Positions 1-5,187 of a stretch of 24,352 nt of DNA are shown one piece after another. The position numbers were made by a program, and so were the translations under genes. Numbering within the stretch: position 1 is the stretch's first letter; each line of letters starts with the position of its first letter. The DNA comes from Candidatus Wukongarchaeum yapensis (GTDB taxonomy: Archaea; Asgardarchaeota; Wukongarchaeia; Wukongarchaeales; Wukongarchaeaceae): assembly GCA_016840425.1 (NCBI GenBank), contig JAEOSI010000005.1, forward strand, positions 1 to 24,352, written 5' to 3'. The notes beneath the pieces were generated by a model. It did not search any database and was not told the origin of the DNA. It was given only the letters and a program-made list of their open reading frames with translations.

Positions 1-1713
1 TGGCATAACTTTGAATTCAGCCCTTGTCTCTTTATCAAGCTCTTTTACTTTAACTTCCCTGTATGCTGGAGATATGTTGCAGGCGCCACATACTGGAATA
101 ATTCTCACGTTCCCTTCGCGTGGGATCTTATAAACGGTTTCAAACTCCTCGACTGTCGTCCCTAAAGGCGCTTCTACTTTTACCTCTTTTTTATGTAGAG
201 AGACGATTAAGTCGAACTCTTTTTCTAAGCACATTCTTTCCCAAAAGATGAGGGATGCTTTTCTTTCCAAAGCGTGGGTTAAATAACCCTCCTCAGTAAG
301 AGGAACCCTTTCGTCTTCAAGACCTTTGTCAGCTCTTGTCAGTTTGTCAAGGAACTCTTCAGCGGGAGCAGCAGCCCCTGTTTCAGGAGGAAGTGTCTCT
401 TTTTTCCTGGCTTTTTTCTCGGCCGGCTTGGGAACTTCAGGCTTGAGTTCTGTTCGAAGACGCTCTATTTCTTTTTCTTCTTTTACGAACATGTCTTCTT
501 CTTCCTCTATTCCTGCGTCTAGCCCCTCTAGTGTTTCGCCTAGCCCTTTACCGACGACCTCTGTTATTTTGAGGACTCCTTTCAGGTTTAACGCTTCTTC
601 GCCCACATAGTATTCCCTAGTGTAATGTTCTACATCGGTCATTATGGATTCGTATTTCGGATAACCTATTATTGTAGGGAACGCGCTTCTGGGTTGGTCT
701 TCGCCTGCATAACCTGCTTTTGTTAGTTCGGCTCCCATATCTATGACGATAGGTTTTCCAAGCTTTTCACCTAATTCTTCTTCGGAGGCTTCACCTATAA
801 CAAACATTCCTAGTTTTTCGCGAATTATGTCGGGTCCATGTTCTTCGTACTCTTTTTTAGTTATCCAAAGCCTGTTAGAACTTTTCCTTGAAGCTATTAT
901 GCTTGCCGCTATCCATTCAGCGTAACTCGGTGCTTCTGGCGTAATTATGTTGATTTTAGTGGTTTCTGGCAGGATAGCGCTAAGTTCTTTTTGTAGGCGT
1001 TCTTTTAAGCCTGAAAGCGAGGCTGTTCCGCCGCATAACACGATGTTCTCATAAAGTTTGTTACGTATTGATGCGTCGCAGCTTTTTACAGCGTCAACTA
1101 TTAGCTCACTAAGATTCTTTCCTTCAATACCAAGGACTGTGGGATTGAAAAGGCATTCTGGAGCCGTAAATCTTTCAGTGCGTATAGTTATCTTTTCGCC
1201 ATCAGGTAACGTGTAAGAGATCTCTATCTTTGCCTTTTCACTCTTCAATTCTTTTTCGTAGTCCAGTGCAGCGTAACAAAGTTTCTCCTTGATGTCGCGA
1301 ACAATCTCACGCTCAGTGCTGGTGTCAAGCGAATAACCGCTCTGCCGAAGCAACCTTCTCAAATAATCCGTGATATCGCTTCCTCCCACATCAAAAGTCC
1401 TTATAGCGTGGGTGATGGGGAAACCTTCCTCGACTGGCACAATCTCAGTAGACGTATAACCGATGCTCACAACGACTCCCGTTGTTTTACCAACACTAAT
1501 CAGAGGAAGAACGCCTTTGTCAAGGAGCATGACAGCTTGAGCGTTAAAGGTGTCAAAACAGATCTCAACTAGCTTTTCCCGATTAGCGGTAGGATTTAGG
1601 GTAGGATCTGTAAAAACAAGAGGATGTTCTGAAGGTTCAACCCGAAGATCGGTATATAGGATATAGTGTAGGATCTTTTCGAAGCCATCCCAATCAAGAA
1701 TCATTTCACTCAA
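1..1713 (-). CDS. Circularly permuted actin-family protein (Asgard actin-derived) fused to a C-terminal extra domain; 3'-partial, runs off the window edge
   Basis: Manual translation gives an open frame from TTG 1713 (GGGGG SD-like run at 1721-1725; upstream in-frame TAA at 1747-1749) to base 1 with no stop. It reads MSEMILDWDGFEKILHYILYTDLRVEPSEHP...GKTTG...EREIVRDIKEKLCYAALD...YTLPDG...ERFTAPECLFNP...LYENIVLCGGT...LWITKKEYEEHGPDIIR (actin ~72-375), then KPIVIDMGAELTKAGYAGEDQPRSAFPTIIGYPKYESIMTDVEHYTREYYVGEEALNLKGVLKI (actin ~5-70), then a linker and a further domain. Confidence 0.93.
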   Translation of the reverse strand, partial: MSEMILDWDGFEKILHYILYTDLRVEPSEHPLVFTDPTLNPTANREKLVEICFDTFNAQAVMLLDKGVLPLISVGKTTGVVVSIGYTSTEIVPVEEGFPITHAIRTFDVGGSDITDYLRRLLRQSGYSLDTSTEREIVRDIKEKLCYAALDYEKELKSEKAKIEISYTLPDGEKITIRTERFTAPECLFNPTVLGIEGKNLSELIVDAVKSCDASIRNKLYENIVLCGGTASLSGLKERLQKELSAILPETTKINIITPEAPSYAEWIAASIIASRKSSNRLWITKKEYEEHGPDIIREKLGMFVIGEASEEELGEKLGKPIVIDMGAELTKAGYAGEDQPRSAFPTIIGYPKYESIMTDVEHYTREYYVGEEALNLKGVLKITEVVGKGLGETLEGLDAGIEEEEDMFVKEEKEIERLRTELKPEVPKPAEKKARKKETLPPETGAAAPAEEFLDKLTRADKGLEDERVPLTEEGYLTHALERKASLIFWERMCLEKEFDLIVSLHKKEVKVEAPLGTTVEEFETVYKIPREGNVRIIPVCGACNISPAYREVKVKELDKETRAEFKVMP

Positions 1714-1873
1714 AACTTTTCCCCCTTGATCCGTACGATTATTATCTTAACGTTTTGATGTTATTTTAGGCTTTTGGGAGGGTTTATAGGCTTTACGCTC
1801 TGACTAATCAAAAATCTAAGTTTAAAAAATAGATAATAGGTTATGCTAAAAAAGGAATAGGGGATTAAGATTT

Positions 1874-2305: not shown

Positions 2306-3802
2306 TTACGCGGTTTTTGCATGATTTTTTATTTGTTTTTCGAGGGTTTCCCAGAACATGCGCATTGAAAAGTTTGTGAAATCTTTGAACATTTCTTTTT
2401 CTTTTGTGAGTGGGGAGTAGTAAGCTGCATCATGGAGATGGCGTAGAAGCGTGTATAGGTTCACGATTTTTTGGAAGTGTTTTTTCCATGGGAGATTTTC
2501 TGTTTTTAGGAGGTTTTGGTAGGTTTTGATTATTTTTTCGTTTATTTTTTCGAGGAATTTTGTGGGGCAGTTTGGGATGATGTTTTCTGTGAGTTCTAAA
2601 TGTTTTGCTATGAATTTGTTTGCGGTTATGAGGTCTGCTATATCTTTTGCTGGGTGGCCTATGTAAAACTCTTCTAGGTCTAGTATGACGAGTCTTTCTT
2701 TTTTTGTTAGGAGTATTTGGCGCCATTGGGCGTCGTTATGTATGATAGTGAAGGGTTTTATTGGGGTTTTTTCTAATAAGGTTTTGAGAGTTTTTCCTAT
2801 TTTTTCTGCTTCTTGGGTGTTTATGAGCTGGTTTTGTAAGAGGTTTTTAATGTTTTTGTCCATGTCTTTTTTAATTAGAGGCATGAGATCGTAAAGGGGA
2901 GATATTTGGAGGTTTTTTGTTATTCGATTTTTGTGTTCGTAGCCTATTTTGTGGAACTGAAAAATTACGCTTTTTACAACTTTTTCGATCAGAGTTTCTA
3001 AGTTGGATTGTTGTGGTTGTGGTTTTTCTTTTAAACATTTTTTTTGGGTGGTTTTCCAGATTATTTCTCCTAGCTCTTTGGATTCTTTTATGTTTTCCAT
3101 GAATATGGCGAGTATTTGTTCCCGACTTTCGGGTTTTCTCTGAGTTTTTATACCTCCAAATAGTTTGGGTGTGAAGCCTGTTTTTTTAAATGTTTTTAGG
3201 GCTTCGAGTTCATTGTTTCCTCGGTAAAAACGTTCTCGTGGTAGGTAGCGTTTGATTAGTAGGGCTTTATTTTCAAAGAGTGTTATTTTAGCTAAATAAA
3301 GCCTGTTAGTGGTGGGTTCGCCTTTTGGGAATAGGGGGGAAACTGAGAGGACTTTAAGTTTATCCAGAACTTTAGCCATTTCTTCGGTTAAAAACACGGA
3401 GAATTTCCTGTTTTTTTCCTTTTTTTCGACGTTTTTTAAAAGGAGGGATACGCCTTCGGTGGAAGAGAAACGGTCGATTACGAGGAGCTTTTCATGGTTA
3501 TTAAGCTTTAATTCGCCTAAGATACGTTCTTCTTTTGATGTTTCTTTTTTAATTATTATGGATTCATAAAATTCGAAGAATTCGTTATCAAAAGTTTCTA
3601 CGTATAACATGAAGTCAAAACAGTTTTTAGAAGCGTTTATAAGTTCTATTTTACAACTTGAAATTTTTTCAAGCTTAACACGCCACCTTCTGGGGTCGTA
3701 AAAAAGTTCTGCCCACCGATTAGAAACTTTGTTATAAATGGTTAGAGTGTCAAAGTGTACGTGGAAAGACAAAAGGGTTACCTGCCCAAAATAGAATTTC
3801 AT
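2306..3802 (-). CDS. Maltokinase/aminoglycoside-phosphotransferase (APH/ChoK)-like kinase
   Basis: 498 aa. EPTTN resembles the maltokinase EQSN motif; LLIKRY supplies the Lys strand; catalytic-loop-like IIHNDAQWRQIL (cf. HGDLHLGQVL); Mg-binding VILDLEE (cf. IIDFEG); then PAKDIADL. Substrate is uncertain. Confidence 0.6.
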   Translation of the reverse strand: MKFYFGQVTLLSFHVHFDTLTIYNKVSNRWAELFYDPRRWRVKLEKISSCKIELINASKNCFDFMLYVETFDNEFFEFYESIIIKKETSKEERILGELKLNNHEKLLVIDRFSSTEGVSLLLKNVEKKEKNRKFSVFLTEEMAKVLDKLKVLSVSPLFPKGEPTTNRLYLAKITLFENKALLIKRYLPRERFYRGNNELEALKTFKKTGFTPKLFGGIKTQRKPESREQILAIFMENIKESKELGEIIWKTTQKKCLKEKPQPQQSNLETLIEKVVKSVIFQFHKIGYEHKNRITKNLQISPLYDLMPLIKKDMDKNIKNLLQNQLINTQEAEKIGKTLKTLLEKTPIKPFTIIHNDAQWRQILLTKKERLVILDLEEFYIGHPAKDIADLITANKFIAKHLELTENIIPNCPTKFLEKINEKIIKTYQNLLKTENLPWKKHFQKIVNLYTLLRHLHDAAYYSPLTKEKEMFKDFTNFSMRMFWETLEKQIKNHAKTA

Positions 3803-3830: not shown

Positions 3831-5105
3831 TTAACAGTGAACTACCCCCCGCTTTTGCAGGGGGGCTTCCTGCGAGTACATCCTTATCGGGATGCCTGTT
3901 TTTCGCAGAATATCCTCGAAGGAGGATAGCCCGTCCACTGGGGCGTTTTGTGATAGAAAACGAACCATGATGTTTACGGCTGAGTTTTTGTCTCTGTCCA
4001 GTTCGTTTCCACAATAATCACATCTCATAGCCCTATCCCATATATTCATTTCGTGTTTTTTACCGCACGCACAACATGTTTTTGTTGTGTTTTCTTCGCT
4101 GATTTCTATTACTCTCTTACCTACAAGTTTAGCCTTGTAGGTTAGAAATCTGGCGAAGCGGGATAGGCATCCGTTGTTTTGAACTGCTCTATGCAAACTT
4201 TTATCTCGTTTTTTATCCTTATTTCTATTAGAGTTAGACATCTTTTTCACGTTTAGGTCTCCTATGATTATAGTGTTTGCCTTTGTGTTCTCAACAAGCT
4301 TCTTACTCAACTTGTGCTGAAAGTCTTTTATTTGGTTTGCGCATTTTCTCTGCATTTTCCTGAGTTTTCTATGGTACCGTTTCCACTTCCTGCTCCCTTT
4401 CTTGCAATGGTCTCTTTTAGGCTGAATCTCTTCGATTTTCGACTGCCAATACTTGTCCGGTCTCGGATTCTTGGTTTGTAAAAATTTTCCTTTAGTATTT
4501 ACTGCGGTTATGATGTTGGTAATCCCTAAGTCTATTGCTTGGTAAAGTCCGTTATCCAAGTAGGGTTTCTCTTTTCTCTCATAAACGATCGAGATATAGA
4601 ACTTATCACCATCTTCTTTGAAAATTGTAACCTGTTTCACCTTTTTATCCGTGAAGTCGAACTTTTCAGGGATGGTGAACCTTAAAGGGGTGGTTTTTGG
4701 ATGGTTGTGGGAGAACTCAACCCACCCCTCCTTATCGAGCTTGAACCCCGACTGGTTGTAATTCATTGTTGTAAAGTGGTTTTTCCCTTTGAATCTTGGA
4801 GGGTTCGCTTTTTTGTCCCCGTTCCTCCTCAAAGCGAGGAAGGACTTATAGTCGCCGTCCAGCCTCCTTAGAACCATCTGCAAAACTTTTGAATAGACCC
4901 AGCTGTATTCAGGATACTTCCTTTTTATCTCTGGTAGGTCGTTCTGCTGTTTAGTGTAGTTAACATTTTTCCCGTTTTTCTTCCATGCTTCTATTCTTCC
5001 CGCTAGGGCGAAGTTGTATATGAGCCGACATTTTTCGGAAAGATCCTGAAGTACTTCTTCTTGTTCCTCTGACGGGAATATCCTGGTCTTCTGGGTTAGT
5101 TGCAT
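3831..5105 (-). CDS. tnpB: RNA-guided endonuclease TnpB
   Basis: Likely start is ATG 5105 (MQLTQKTRIFPSEEQ, HTH_OrfB-like). Motifs: RuvC-I AIDLGI, FQHKLSKKLV, RuvC-II region IIIGDL, Zn finger CCACG...CDYCG, RuvC-III DRDKNSAVNI. The stop codon lies just outside the element's right end. Confidence 0.95.
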   Translation of the reverse strand: MQLTQKTRIFPSEEQEEVLQDLSEKCRLIYNFALAGRIEAWKKNGKNVNYTKQQNDLPEIKRKYPEYSWVYSKVLQMVLRRLDGDYKSFLALRRNGDKKANPPRFKGKNHFTTMNYNQSGFKLDKEGWVEFSHNHPKTTPLRFTIPEKFDFTDKKVKQVTIFKEDGDKFYISIVYERKEKPYLDNGLYQAIDLGITNIITAVNTKGKFLQTKNPRPDKYWQSKIEEIQPKRDHCKKGSRKWKRYHRKLRKMQRKCANQIKDFQHKLSKKLVENTKANTIIIGDLNVKKMSNSNRNKDKKRDKSLHRAVQNNGCLSRFARFLTYKAKLVGKRVIEISEENTTKTCCACGKKHEMNIWDRAMRCDYCGNELDRDKNSAVNIMVRFLSQNAPVDGLSSFEDILRKTGIPIRMYSQEAPLQKRGVVHC

Positions 5106-5187
5106 CTTATATTTCTTTCCCTTGGAAACCTTATAAACACCGCGATTCATCCCCTCCCTGTTGGAAGGAGACTTCTCGCCAAATAAG
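3837..5187 (-). mobile_element. IS200/IS605-family solo-tnpB element (IS1341-type, no tnpA)
   Basis: On the minus strand the left end CTTATTTGGCGAGAAGTCTCCTTCCAACAGGGAGGGGATGAATCGCG (hairpin) follows a TTTAA target motif (+ strand TTAAA, 5188-5192). The right end is GGAAGCCCCCCTGCAAAAGCGGGGGGTAGTTCAC (hairpin plus TCAC, ending at 3837). No tnpA lies between the ends. Confidence 0.8.

What the first reader, a model, noticed from the sequence alone, without database searches (positions are those of the whole stretch)
544..1713. Circularly permuted Asgard actin: residues ~72-375 come first, then ~1-74, in one ORF
Seen in sequence: the ORF opens with MSEMILDWDGFEKILHY, which aligns to actin E72-H-G-I-I-T-N-W79-D-D-M-E-K-I-W-H-H. 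It stays colinear without indels through at least H161 (residue n = actin n+71) and reaches the actin C-terminal motif LWITKKEYEEHGPDIIR at ~820. After ~20 residues it resumes with the actin N-terminus (PIVIDMG...KAGYAGEDQPRSAFPTIIGYPKY...YVGEEALNLKGVLKITEVVGKG), ending at the equivalent of G74 (base 544). Each part of the fold is present once, and the break falls at the His73 sensor loop. There is an in-frame stop at 1747-1749 and no actin N-terminus upstream in the AT-rich spacer. Established knowledge: actin's native N- and C-termini both lie in subdomain 1, so a short linker can join them and the permutant could fold. Inference: this is a natural circular permutant, a new architecture of Asgard actin-related protein. 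I know of no described natural example, but cannot check the literature here.
Basis: partly seen in the sequence, partly recalled or inferred. Interest (0 to 1): 0.95.

Follow-up and report, generated by a model that had tools for sequence, protein, structure and literature searches.

The report
Membrane-anchored circularly permuted Asgard actin
An Asgard archaeon encodes a real, conserved actin whose last four-fifths come before its first fifth in one protein, with a degenerate ATP site and a membrane anchor; I found no description of a natural circularly permuted actin, and it may tie actin filaments to the membrane.

Summary
The minus-strand ORF (start TTG 1713 or ATG 1704) encodes actin 72/75-375, a 16-residue connector, then actin 5-74. 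Each part occurs once.

The ORF does not stop at 544. It runs off the window into contig C22, giving a ~690-aa protein:
- permuted actin module
- acidic linker
- Ig-like beta-sandwich
- two C-terminal membrane helices

It is not a chimera. Six family sequences (80-99% identical) from NCBI, ENA, JGI and Logan share the order, one inside an 83-kb syntenic contig. Contigs from two other studies bridge the junction.

The same genome and a sister genome each carry a second permuted paralogue (47% identical, same architecture) and a normal actin. The two families form one clade, so the permutation happened once. The junction keeps the old C-terminus and the old start Met, a footprint of tandem fusion and truncation.

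Both actin pieces are under purifying selection, and a split-chain model docks them as in actin. The phosphate loops, Q137 and H161 are replaced in both families.

The scan also noted the paralogue on other DNA of this genome (e1-5393828).

The proposed function, a membrane anchor or cap for actin filaments, is inference.

The parts
1..1713 (-). Coding sequence of the permuted actin protein (family A). It starts at TTG 1713 or ATG 1704 and runs off the window at base 1. It continues in G000:C22 145-516, for about 690-694 aa in all.
   Evidence: The full-length orthologue P0004 (690 aa) lies inside an 83-kb contig.
1747..1749 (-). In-frame stop codon (TAA) upstream of the start. No actin N-terminus lies upstream.
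   Evidence: Read. The upstream region is conserved in L024 and L025. No further actin pieces were found nearby.
1721..1725 (-). GGGGG, a ribosome-binding-site-like run 7 nt before TTG 1713 and 16 nt before ATG 1704.
   Evidence: It is invariant in three genomes. Its function is inferred.
808..1713 (-). Actin C-piece: residues 1-302, equal to actin 72/75-375 (rest of subdomain 1, plus subdomains 3 and 4).
   Evidence: The model superposes on actin 72-375 with Z 24.
1516..1518 (-). Lys66 at the position of catalytic Gln137.
   Evidence: It is Lys in both permuted families.
1444..1467 (-). Degenerate second phosphate loop: SIGYTSTE in place of DSGDGVTH (actin 154-161, including His161 to Glu).
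760..807 (-). Connector, residues 303-318, joining the old C-terminus (residue 302 = actin 375) to the old N-terminus. It begins with Met303 (ATG 805-807), which aligns with the start Met of normal actins.
   Evidence: dN/dS there is high or undefined, as expected for a linker.
544..759 (-). Actin N-piece: residues 319-390, equal to actin 5-74 (first strands of subdomain 1 plus all of subdomain 2 with the D-loop).
   Evidence: dN/dS is 0.09-0.18. It docks natively in the two-chain model.
718..741 (-). Degenerate first phosphate loop: DMGAELTK in place of DNGTGLTK (actin 11-18; Ser/Thr14 to Ala, Gly15 to Glu).
607..666 (-). D-loop region, nearly identical to the genome's normal actin (GYPKYESIMTDVEHYTREYY).
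289..543 (-). Acidic, Glu/Lys/Pro-rich low-complexity linker, residues 391-475.
   Evidence: Composition. It is the least conserved part of the protein (dN/dS 0.36-0.78).
1..288 (-). First part of an Ig-like beta-sandwich domain (residues ~476-571). The domain continues off the window and is followed by two hydrophobic helices on C22.
   Evidence: AF2 model has pLDDT above 90 over the sandwich, then helices 166-186 and 194-229 of the segment. Fold matches are, homologues.

Best explanation
This is a genuine gene for a circularly permuted actin-fold protein. Core claim, about 0.85-0.9: two tandem Asgard actin genes fused end to end. The first copy then lost residues 1 to about 71, and the second copy lost everything after residue 74. 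The result is one polypeptide with actin 75-375, a 16-residue connector and actin 5-74, which together rebuild one actin fold nicked at the His73 loop. The new C-terminus leads through an acidic flexible linker to a cytoplasmic Ig-like beta-sandwich and a two-helix membrane hairpin, so the actin module is tethered to the inner face of the membrane. The nucleotide site is degenerate, so the protein probably no longer hydrolyses ATP and may not bind it. This happened once, before a duplication that gave two paralogues (A in the window, B on contig C20). Both are kept beside a normal actin and a profilin. Functional mechanism, inferred, about 0.35: family A keeps the pointed-end face of actin (D-loop, subdomains 2 and 4) better than the barbed-end groove. 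It would therefore dock on the barbed end or side of normal actin filaments and hold or cap them at the membrane, acting as a nucleotide-independent membrane anchor for the cytoskeleton.
For: Order and completeness are shown.
The gene is real. Six family-A proteins (80-99% identical) and five family-B proteins from NCBI, ENA, JGI and Logan share the order. An orthologue sits inside an 83-kb contig with the same neighbours. The stretch is held in 20 runs of 11 studies. A 1034-nt contig (684-1717, no differences) and an 810-nt contig of another strain (586-1395) bridge the junction, and a 361-nt contig bridges the start.
Selection: dN/dS is about 0.2 for the C-piece and 0.09-0.18 for the N-piece, against 0.3-1.3 in the linkers.
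Fold: model residues 1-302 superpose on actin 72-375 with Z 24. The two-chain prediction scored 0.84 against 0.00 for the best of 3 controls. That mark was reached by 58 of 80 solved complexes and 2 of 110 mismatched pairs, and these counts hold only roughly because my own alignments were used. The runs agree in at least 94% of contacts and the partner's pLDDT is at least 79. The contacts are the native ones (strand 8-12 against 101-106, helix 338-344). Because actin structures are solved, this shows likeness to actin.
Origin: the junction keeps the old C-terminus to its last residue (A ...IIREKLG, B ...IIEEKRF, normal ...IHRCF). Then come 0-3 residues, a Met and an acidic tail like a normal actin N-terminus. 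Family B carries the segment equal to actin 65-75 at both ends. Families A and B form one clade (SH-aLRT 99) and share Q137K, S14A, G15 to an acidic residue, S155I and H161E.
Anchor: the beta-sandwich has pLDDT above 90 and is followed by two helices. The same module occurs alone in about 55 mostly Thorarchaeota membrane proteins and once behind small-GTPase domains.
Interfaces: family A is 0.75-0.88 identical to normal actin on the pointed face, 0.47-0.50 on the barbed face and 0.57 overall.
A normal actin and a profilin are present in the genome.
Against: Single-chain AF2 with a fragment-augmented alignment did not place the N-piece (pLDDT about 24 for residues 327-400, mean 63), so no one-chain model of the closed fold exists. 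The two-chain pass may reflect the model's memory of actin. Expression rests on one 152-nt metatranscriptome contig at 98% identity, which may be DNA carry-over. Loss of nucleotide binding is inferred from motifs only. The interface comparison uses residue lists from my own knowledge of F-actin contacts and small counts, and family B does not show the same contrast. The gene was found in only one genus-level lineage. No tandem-actin intermediate was found in archaea.
Confidence: 0.85

Rival explanations
1. The permuted actins form their own membrane-bound polymer, either a homopolymer or an A-B heteropolymer. This would be a separate filament system lining the membrane rather than an adaptor for normal actin filaments.
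For: There are two conserved paralogues with the same architecture in each genome. Many actin-fold proteins polymerise. Family A keeps much of the D-loop and the lateral contact residues (0.64 identical).
Against: The barbed-end groove that must receive the D-loop of the next subunit is changed (Y143I, Y166E, L349R, F352S). The ATP site that drives filament dynamics is degenerate in both families. Family B has lost most contact residues (0.25-0.43 identical).
Confidence: 0.2
2. It is a non-polymerising pseudo-actin scaffold. The tethered module would bind monomeric actin or an actin regulator such as profilin or gelsolin, or an unrelated partner, and concentrate or sequester it at the membrane.
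For: The ATP site is degenerate. A profilin is present in the genome. The same anchor module carries small-GTPase domains in another protein, which suggests a general platform for membrane recruitment.
Against: The profilin- and gelsolin-binding groove (the barbed face) is the less conserved surface in family A. No partner gene is conserved next to it, and the neighbours are housekeeping genes.
Confidence: 0.25
3. It is an artefact or a dying gene: an assembly chimera of two actin copies, or a pseudogene remnant of a tandem pair.
For: The window's contig breaks inside the gene at base 1. The best-holding run X1 has only short pieces over the middle of the gene.
Against: The same order occurs in 11 distinct sequences from several sources and in an 83-kb contig. 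Contigs from other studies bridge the junction. The reading frame stays open for about 690-760 aa. dN/dS is 0.1-0.2 in both pieces. The paralogues are 47% identical yet keep the architecture.
Confidence: 0.02
4. The gene gives two products. Translation also starts at the fossil Met303 (ATG 805-807), giving a short protein with only the actin N-piece, the linker and the anchor. That product would bind the separately made C-piece or a normal actin.
For: The ancestral start Met is kept in both families. The two pieces are predicted to dock as separate chains.
Against: There is no stop codon between the pieces, so the long product is made in any case. I did not look for a ribosome-binding site before ATG 805-807. 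Connector residues vary freely.
Confidence: 0.05

Closest known systems
Lokiactin, the canonical Asgard actin (for example HC1 actin of a cultured Hodarchaeales strain, PDB 9wc4; the genome's own copy is P0126)
   Same: It has the same fold family. It is the best sequence match (E 4e-121). The N-piece is 74% and the C-piece 54% identical to the genome's own actin. The Asgard-type longer D-loop is shared.
   Different: The order of segments is permuted. The ATP-site residues are replaced. The protein is fused to a linker, a beta-sandwich and a membrane hairpin, and is about 690 aa rather than about 380.
Eukaryotic actin-related proteins with specialised end-binding roles (Arp2/3; Arp11 at the pointed end of the dynactin filament). 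Comparison from my own knowledge.
   Same: These are diverged actin folds kept beside a conventional actin. One filament face is conserved and the other altered, and they are used to nucleate or cap rather than to elongate.
   Different: Arps keep the normal chain order. They are soluble complex subunits rather than membrane proteins, and most still bind nucleotide. No homology beyond the actin family is implied.
FtsA, the bacterial actin homologue. Comparison from my own knowledge; the Pfam FtsA hit here is only E 0.013.
   Same: It is an actin-fold protein with a rearranged domain layout. It is fixed to the membrane by its C-terminus and tethers a cytoskeletal polymer.
   Different: FtsA moves one subdomain rather than permuting the chain. 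It uses an amphipathic helix rather than transmembrane helices, binds ATP, and tethers FtsZ rather than actin.
Circularly permuted GTPases (YjeQ/RsgA, YlqF family). Comparison from my own knowledge.
   Same: They are a natural circular permutation of a nucleotide-binding fold, fixed in a protein family and explained by duplication, fusion and truncation.
   Different: They have a different fold and function, and they remain active enzymes.
Thorarchaeota 'membrane protein of unknown function' family (P0257, P0329 and others, about 320 aa)
   Same: It carries the same C-terminal module, 58% identical over residues 476-688: the WERMC...CxxCNISP beta-sandwich plus two membrane helices.
   Different: These proteins have an N-terminal membrane helix and a disordered linker instead of the actin module. 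One relative (P0343) has small-GTPase domains there.

Membership tests
Actin family (Pfam PF00022) | Significant match to the family profile | tested here: met
   357 bits against a cut-off of 27. PDB actins match at E 1e-106 to 4e-121.
Actin family (Pfam PF00022) | All parts of the fold present once | tested here: met
   Profile positions 69-408 and 5-69 are each matched once. BLAST order is C then N.
Actin family (Pfam PF00022) | Normal N-to-C order of the chain | tested here: not met
   Residues 4-300 equal actin 75-373 and residues 316-387 equal actin 1-70. The same holds in 11 family members.
Actin family (Pfam PF00022) | Conserved nucleotide site: phosphate loops 11-18 and 154-161, Gln137, His161 | tested here: not met
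   DNGTGLTK becomes DMGAELTK. DSGDGVTH becomes SIGYTSTE (own) or NIGYTSTE (family A consensus). Q137 is Lys and H161 is Glu. Family B is similar.
Actin family (Pfam PF00022) | Three-dimensional actin fold closed by both pieces | tested here: inconclusive
   The C-piece superposes on actin 72-375 with Z 24. Two-chain docking scored 0.84 against 0.00 for the best control, with native contacts, and may come from the model's memory of actin. Single-chain AF2 left the N-piece unplaced.
Actin family (Pfam PF00022) | Polymerisation or binding to actin filaments | not testable with these tools
   Only surface conservation was compared.
Circular permutant by tandem duplication, fusion and truncation | Old termini joined by a short connector that retains terminal residues of both copies | tested here: met
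   The old C-terminus is kept to its last residue. Then come 0-3 residues, a Met and an acidic N-terminal tail.
Circular permutant by tandem duplication, fusion and truncation | Overlap of the same segment at both new ends | tested here: met
   Family B has the equivalent of actin 65-75 at its N-terminus and again after the N-piece. Family A has 0-3 residues of overlap.
Circular permutant by tandem duplication, fusion and truncation | Tandem (N-C-N-C) intermediate in related organisms | tested here: not met
   The only N-C-N-C proteins among the 150 top-scoring hits listed (search over 1.84 billion representatives) are eukaryotic gene models such as Anaeramoeba. None is archaeal.
Integral membrane protein with a C-terminal hairpin anchor | Two hydrophobic helices long enough to span the membrane, no signal peptide, positive residues on the cytoplasmic side | tested here: met
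   Helices 166-186 and 194-229 of the modelled segment. A hydrophobic window covers P0004 648-682. The tail RGLKPLMKEISISFRK is basic. This is prediction only.

The most novel reading that the evidence does not exclude
This is the first natural circular permutant of actin. It would be a nucleotide-independent actin module tethered to the membrane that docks with its preserved pointed-end face onto the barbed ends of normal Asgard actin filaments. It would cap, nucleate or anchor them at the membrane, giving a built-in membrane-cytoskeleton linker in a close archaeal relative of eukaryotes.
Probability: 0.3. Interest if true: 0.9.

Novelty: new variant of a known kind. Interest (0 to 1): 0.78.

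Why it matters
Actin is among the most conserved proteins known, and its chain topology has been treated as fixed. A natural permutant that is kept under selection shows the fold tolerates a nick at the His73 sensor loop and closure of its native ends. Its junction also preserves the textbook duplication, fusion and truncation route.

Cultured Asgard archaea build actin-filled protrusions (PMC13716822). In the papers I searched I found no account of how the filaments are fixed to the membrane. A membrane-anchored actin-fold protein with one filament face preserved is a concrete candidate that can be tested in vitro with the organism's own actin. The distribution is narrow (one genus-level lineage). 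It therefore bears on how the Asgard cytoskeleton can diversify rather than on the eukaryotic ancestor itself.

Tried and rejected
- **Single-chain AF2.** I ran the actin module with an alignment that added normal actins as separate C- and N-fragments. Mean pLDDT was 63 and the N-piece was about 24. This is inconclusive and is not evidence against the fold.
- **Assembly chimera or pseudogene.** Rejected. The hole in run X1 over 757-1266 is only a gap in short contigs and proves nothing.
- **Archaeal tandem-actin intermediates.** The N-C-N-C hits P0133-P0136 and the C-N-C fragments are eukaryotic gene models (Anaeramoeba, fungi, an insect). They may themselves be model fusions.
- **Wider distribution.** The permuted order was found only in this genus: G001 of 40 relatives, one of 185,579 species genomes, and two 50% clusters among the 150 top-scoring hits listed, from a search of 1.84 billion representatives.
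- **C-terminal module.** No Pfam family matched (best E 0.058). Fold searches gave only generic Ig-like sandwiches (cohesin, CARDB, PapD/MSP, TRAP) and beta-sandwich-plus-helix parts of bacterial EAD, TIR and CHAT proteins at TM 0.4-0.48. No function can be drawn from these. The CxxC motif is not invariant; only one Cys is.
- **ESM Atlas.** Only ordinary actin clusters appeared, and the Atlas holds no model.
- **Literature.** Five searches for a permuted actin, and the text of three Asgard papers, gave nothing.
- **Expression.** One 152-nt contig in a leaf-litter metatranscriptome covers 1088-1239 with 3 differences. This is too little to claim transcription.
- **RNA-level re-ordering.** I considered circularisation as in the permuted 5S genes noted by the scan. 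I set it aside without a test. The permuted frame runs on in frame into a conserved linker and anchor in two paralogue families, and a circle of the actin part would have no stop codon.
- **Gene neighbours.** They are a kinase-like ORF, TnpB, cation-efflux genes, DUF166 and metabolic genes, and give no functional link.
Full report
**What is in the sequence**

On the minus strand an ORF opens at TTG 1713-1711, with ATG 1704-1702 three codons later. It is preceded by GGGGG at 1721-1725 and by an in-frame TAA at 1747-1749. This upstream stretch is almost identical in two related genomes.

The translation (P0001) matches Pfam Actin at 357 bits in two stretches. Against PDB chains, residues 4-300 align to actin 75-373 and residues 316-387 to actin 1-70. 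The best hit is the HC1 actin of a cultured Hodarchaeales strain (strain described in bioRxiv 10.1101/2025.02.26.640444).

At the DNA level, window 814-1704 covers profile positions 69-408 and window 541-756 covers positions 5-69. Every part of actin is therefore present once, in the order C-piece then N-piece. The break is at residues 72-75. With the ATG start, the chain begins at the equivalent of Ile75 and the N-piece ends at Gly74 (base 544), which is a clean nick.

The ORF does not end at 544. It continues to base 1, which is the start of contig C97. It overlaps contig C22 by 144 identical bases and ends at C22:516. A 99% identical protein on another contig spans that join (P0002).

**It is not an artefact**

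- Six family-A proteins of 80-99% identity from NCBI, ENA, JGI and Logan assemblies share the order and the full architecture.
- One of them (P0004, 690 aa) lies in the middle of an 83-kb contig with the same neighbours as the window.
- The stretch 400-1900 is held in 20 runs from 11 studies of marine sediment, seawater, mangrove and soil.
- A 1034-nt contig with no differences (684-1717) bridges the junction. So does an 810-nt contig of a different strain (586-1395, 14 differences). A 361-nt contig bridges the start and the upstream stop.
- Pairwise dN/dS between three genomes is about 0.2 for the C-piece, 0.09-0.18 for the N-piece and 0.11-0.27 for the beta domain. It is 0.3-1.3 in the connector and the acidic linker. 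These are rough figures because divergence is low.

**A second paralogue and one origin**

The same genome has a second permuted actin on contig C20 (P0125, 753 aa). It is 47% identical and has the same layout, including the linker, beta domain and membrane helices. The genome also has one normal actin, P0126, split over C185 and probably C43.

The sister genome G001 has all three genes. NCBI labels that record Candidatus Hodarchaeota archaeon DZ1B.339. Family B has four further members.

I put the pieces back in normal order in a script and built a tree. Families A and B form one clade (SH-aLRT 99). Its place among actins is not resolved because of long branches. The two families also share the breakpoint, the C-terminal architecture and the derived residues S14A, G15 to Glu/Asp, Q137K, S155I and H161E.

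Elsewhere I found only the normal order:
- 39 other related genomes;
- 185,579 species-representative genomes;
- the 150 top-scoring hits listed from an exhaustive phmmer run over 1.84 billion cluster representatives, where only clusters P0007 and P0128 are C-then-N.

The N-C-N-C 'double actins' in that list are eukaryotic gene models.

**How it arose (inference from the junction)**

Normal Asgard actins end ...IHRCF and begin M-(acidic tail)-KP-V-V-D. Family A reads ...IIREKLG-M-FVIGEASEEELGEKLGKPIVID. Family B reads ...IIEEKRF-QTI-M-STSPDPETEKIAETFEVPIILD.

The old C-terminus is kept to its last residue. The old start Met (ATG 805-807) and the acidic N-terminal tail are still visible. Family B also carries the equivalent of actin 65-75 at both ends: KVFPVRAIKNW at the start and IEYPISNVFVSIK after the N-piece. 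These are the footprints expected from end-to-end fusion of two tandem genes, followed by loss of the outer parts.

**Does the fold close?**

The connector between the equivalents of residue 375 (Gly302) and residue 5 (Gly319) is 16 residues. In actin both native ends lie in subdomain 1 (established knowledge).

The AF2 model of residues 1-400 is poor (mean pLDDT 63) and leaves residues 327-400 unplaced. Its residues 1-302 nevertheless superpose on actin 72-375 (Z about 24, 2.3-5 A over 236-275 residues).

I then folded the two pieces as separate chains. The score was 0.84 and the best of 3 controls was 0.00. This mark was reached by 58 of 80 solved complexes and 2 of 110 mismatched pairs, and the counts hold only roughly because my own alignments were used. 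The runs agree in at least 94% of contacts and the partner's pLDDT is at least 79.

The closest contacts are the native ones. The strand PIVID (actin 7-11) lies against HPLVFT (actin 101-106) and against the helix at W340-S344. The two new chain ends lie next to each other. Because actin structures are solved, this pass shows likeness to actin and is not independent proof.

**Nucleotide site**

Using the offsets, the following replacements are seen.

| Site (actin numbering) | Normal Asgard actin | Family A | Family B |
|---|---|---|---|
| First phosphate loop (11-18) | DNGTGLTK | DMGAELTK | DIGADITK |
| Gln137 | Q | K | K |
| Second phosphate loop (154-161) | DSGDGVTH | SIGYTSTE (own); NIGYTSTE (consensus) | NIGENFTE |
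| Gly302 | G | G | E |

From established knowledge of actin catalysis (Ser14, Gly15, Gln137, Asp154, His161), hydrolysis is very unlikely and nucleotide binding is doubtful. This is inference.

**The rest of the protein**

After the N-piece come about 85 Glu/Lys/Pro-rich residues. A domain follows that AF2 models with pLDDT above 90 as a beta-sandwich, and then two long helices.

Structure searches give only generic Ig-like sandwiches, and Pfam gives nothing. The same module, 58% identical, occurs in about 55 proteins of roughly 320 aa, mostly from Thorarchaeota. There it follows an N-terminal membrane helix and a disordered linker. In one protein it follows small-GTPase domains.

There is no signal peptide, the partner domains are cytoplasmic, and the tail is basic. 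The sandwich and the actin module should therefore be cytoplasmic, held by a membrane hairpin (inference).

**Likely function**

Family A is 0.88 and 0.75 identical to normal Asgard actin on the two pointed-face residue sets, and its D-loop is almost unchanged. It is only 0.50 and 0.47 identical on the barbed-face sets (Y143I, Y166E, L349R, F352S), against 0.57 overall. The residue sets come from my own knowledge of F-actin contacts.

The genome keeps a normal actin and a profilin. My preferred reading, at about 35%, is a nucleotide-independent, membrane-tethered actin module that docks on normal filaments and anchors or caps them. The rivals are a separate membrane-bound polymer (about 20%) and a non-polymerising recruitment scaffold (about 25%). 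None of the three is tested.

**Novelty**

Literature searches found no description of a permuted actin. Three recent Asgard papers do not mention one. Public records call these proteins hypothetical.

The scan's own first-stage notes flagged the degenerate ATP site, the junction Met, the C-terminal domain and the paralogue on other DNA of this genome. I checked each of these independently. I class the finding as a new variant of a known kind.

Noticed in passing
G000:C20, L008:175-2433 (minus strand): A second permuted actin (family B, P0125, 753 aa). It is 47% identical to the window's protein and has the same linker, beta-sandwich and membrane helices. It has orthologues P0127-P0130 and a copy in the sister genome G001:C20.
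   Followed up: yes
P0257, P0290-P0344; P0343: The C-terminal beta-sandwich plus two-helix module forms a family of about 320-aa membrane proteins of unknown function, mostly from Thorarchaeota. One member (P0343, 520 aa) carries Arf/Ras-type small-GTPase domains in front of it, which suggests a general membrane-anchoring cassette.
   Followed up: partly
P0133-P0136, P0154, P0230: Eukaryotic gene models with two actin domains in one protein (N-C-N-C, 742-895 aa), mostly in Anaeramoeba ignava and A. flamelloides. They are either real tandem-actin fusions or merged gene models.
   Followed up: partly
window 1-1713 compared with L024:8001-10073 and L025:4011-6089: Divergence between strains is mosaic. 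L024 and L025 are almost identical in the C-piece (dS 0.01) but differ in the N-piece and beyond (dS 0.3-0.4). The window's C22 tail is identical in protein to L024. This points to recombination between strains or mixed-strain consensus contigs, and may explain the contig break at base 1.
   Followed up: no
window 3831-5150 (minus strand): A TnpB-type gene (OrfB_IS605, Cas12f1-like TNB and HTH domains). It is absent from the syntenic stretch of L024, so it is a recent insertion between the kinase-like ORF and the cation-efflux genes.
   Followed up: no
window 2306-3802 (minus strand): A 498-aa ORF directly upstream of the permuted actin. It is conserved in the same position in L024 (488 aa). 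Its only match is a weak APH/kinase-like hit below the cut-off (E 2.6e-4).
   Followed up: no
window 1088-1239: A 152-nt contig from a leaf-litter metatranscriptome (run X20) matches with 3 differences. It is a faint hint that the gene or a close relative is transcribed.
   Followed up: partly
P0004 residues about 430-450 compared with window 330-420: The acidic linker of the orthologue P0004 has PPP and PPPP runs, while the window's copy has only LPPE and AAAPA. Poly-proline tracts can bind profilin, but the motif is not conserved.
   Followed up: no
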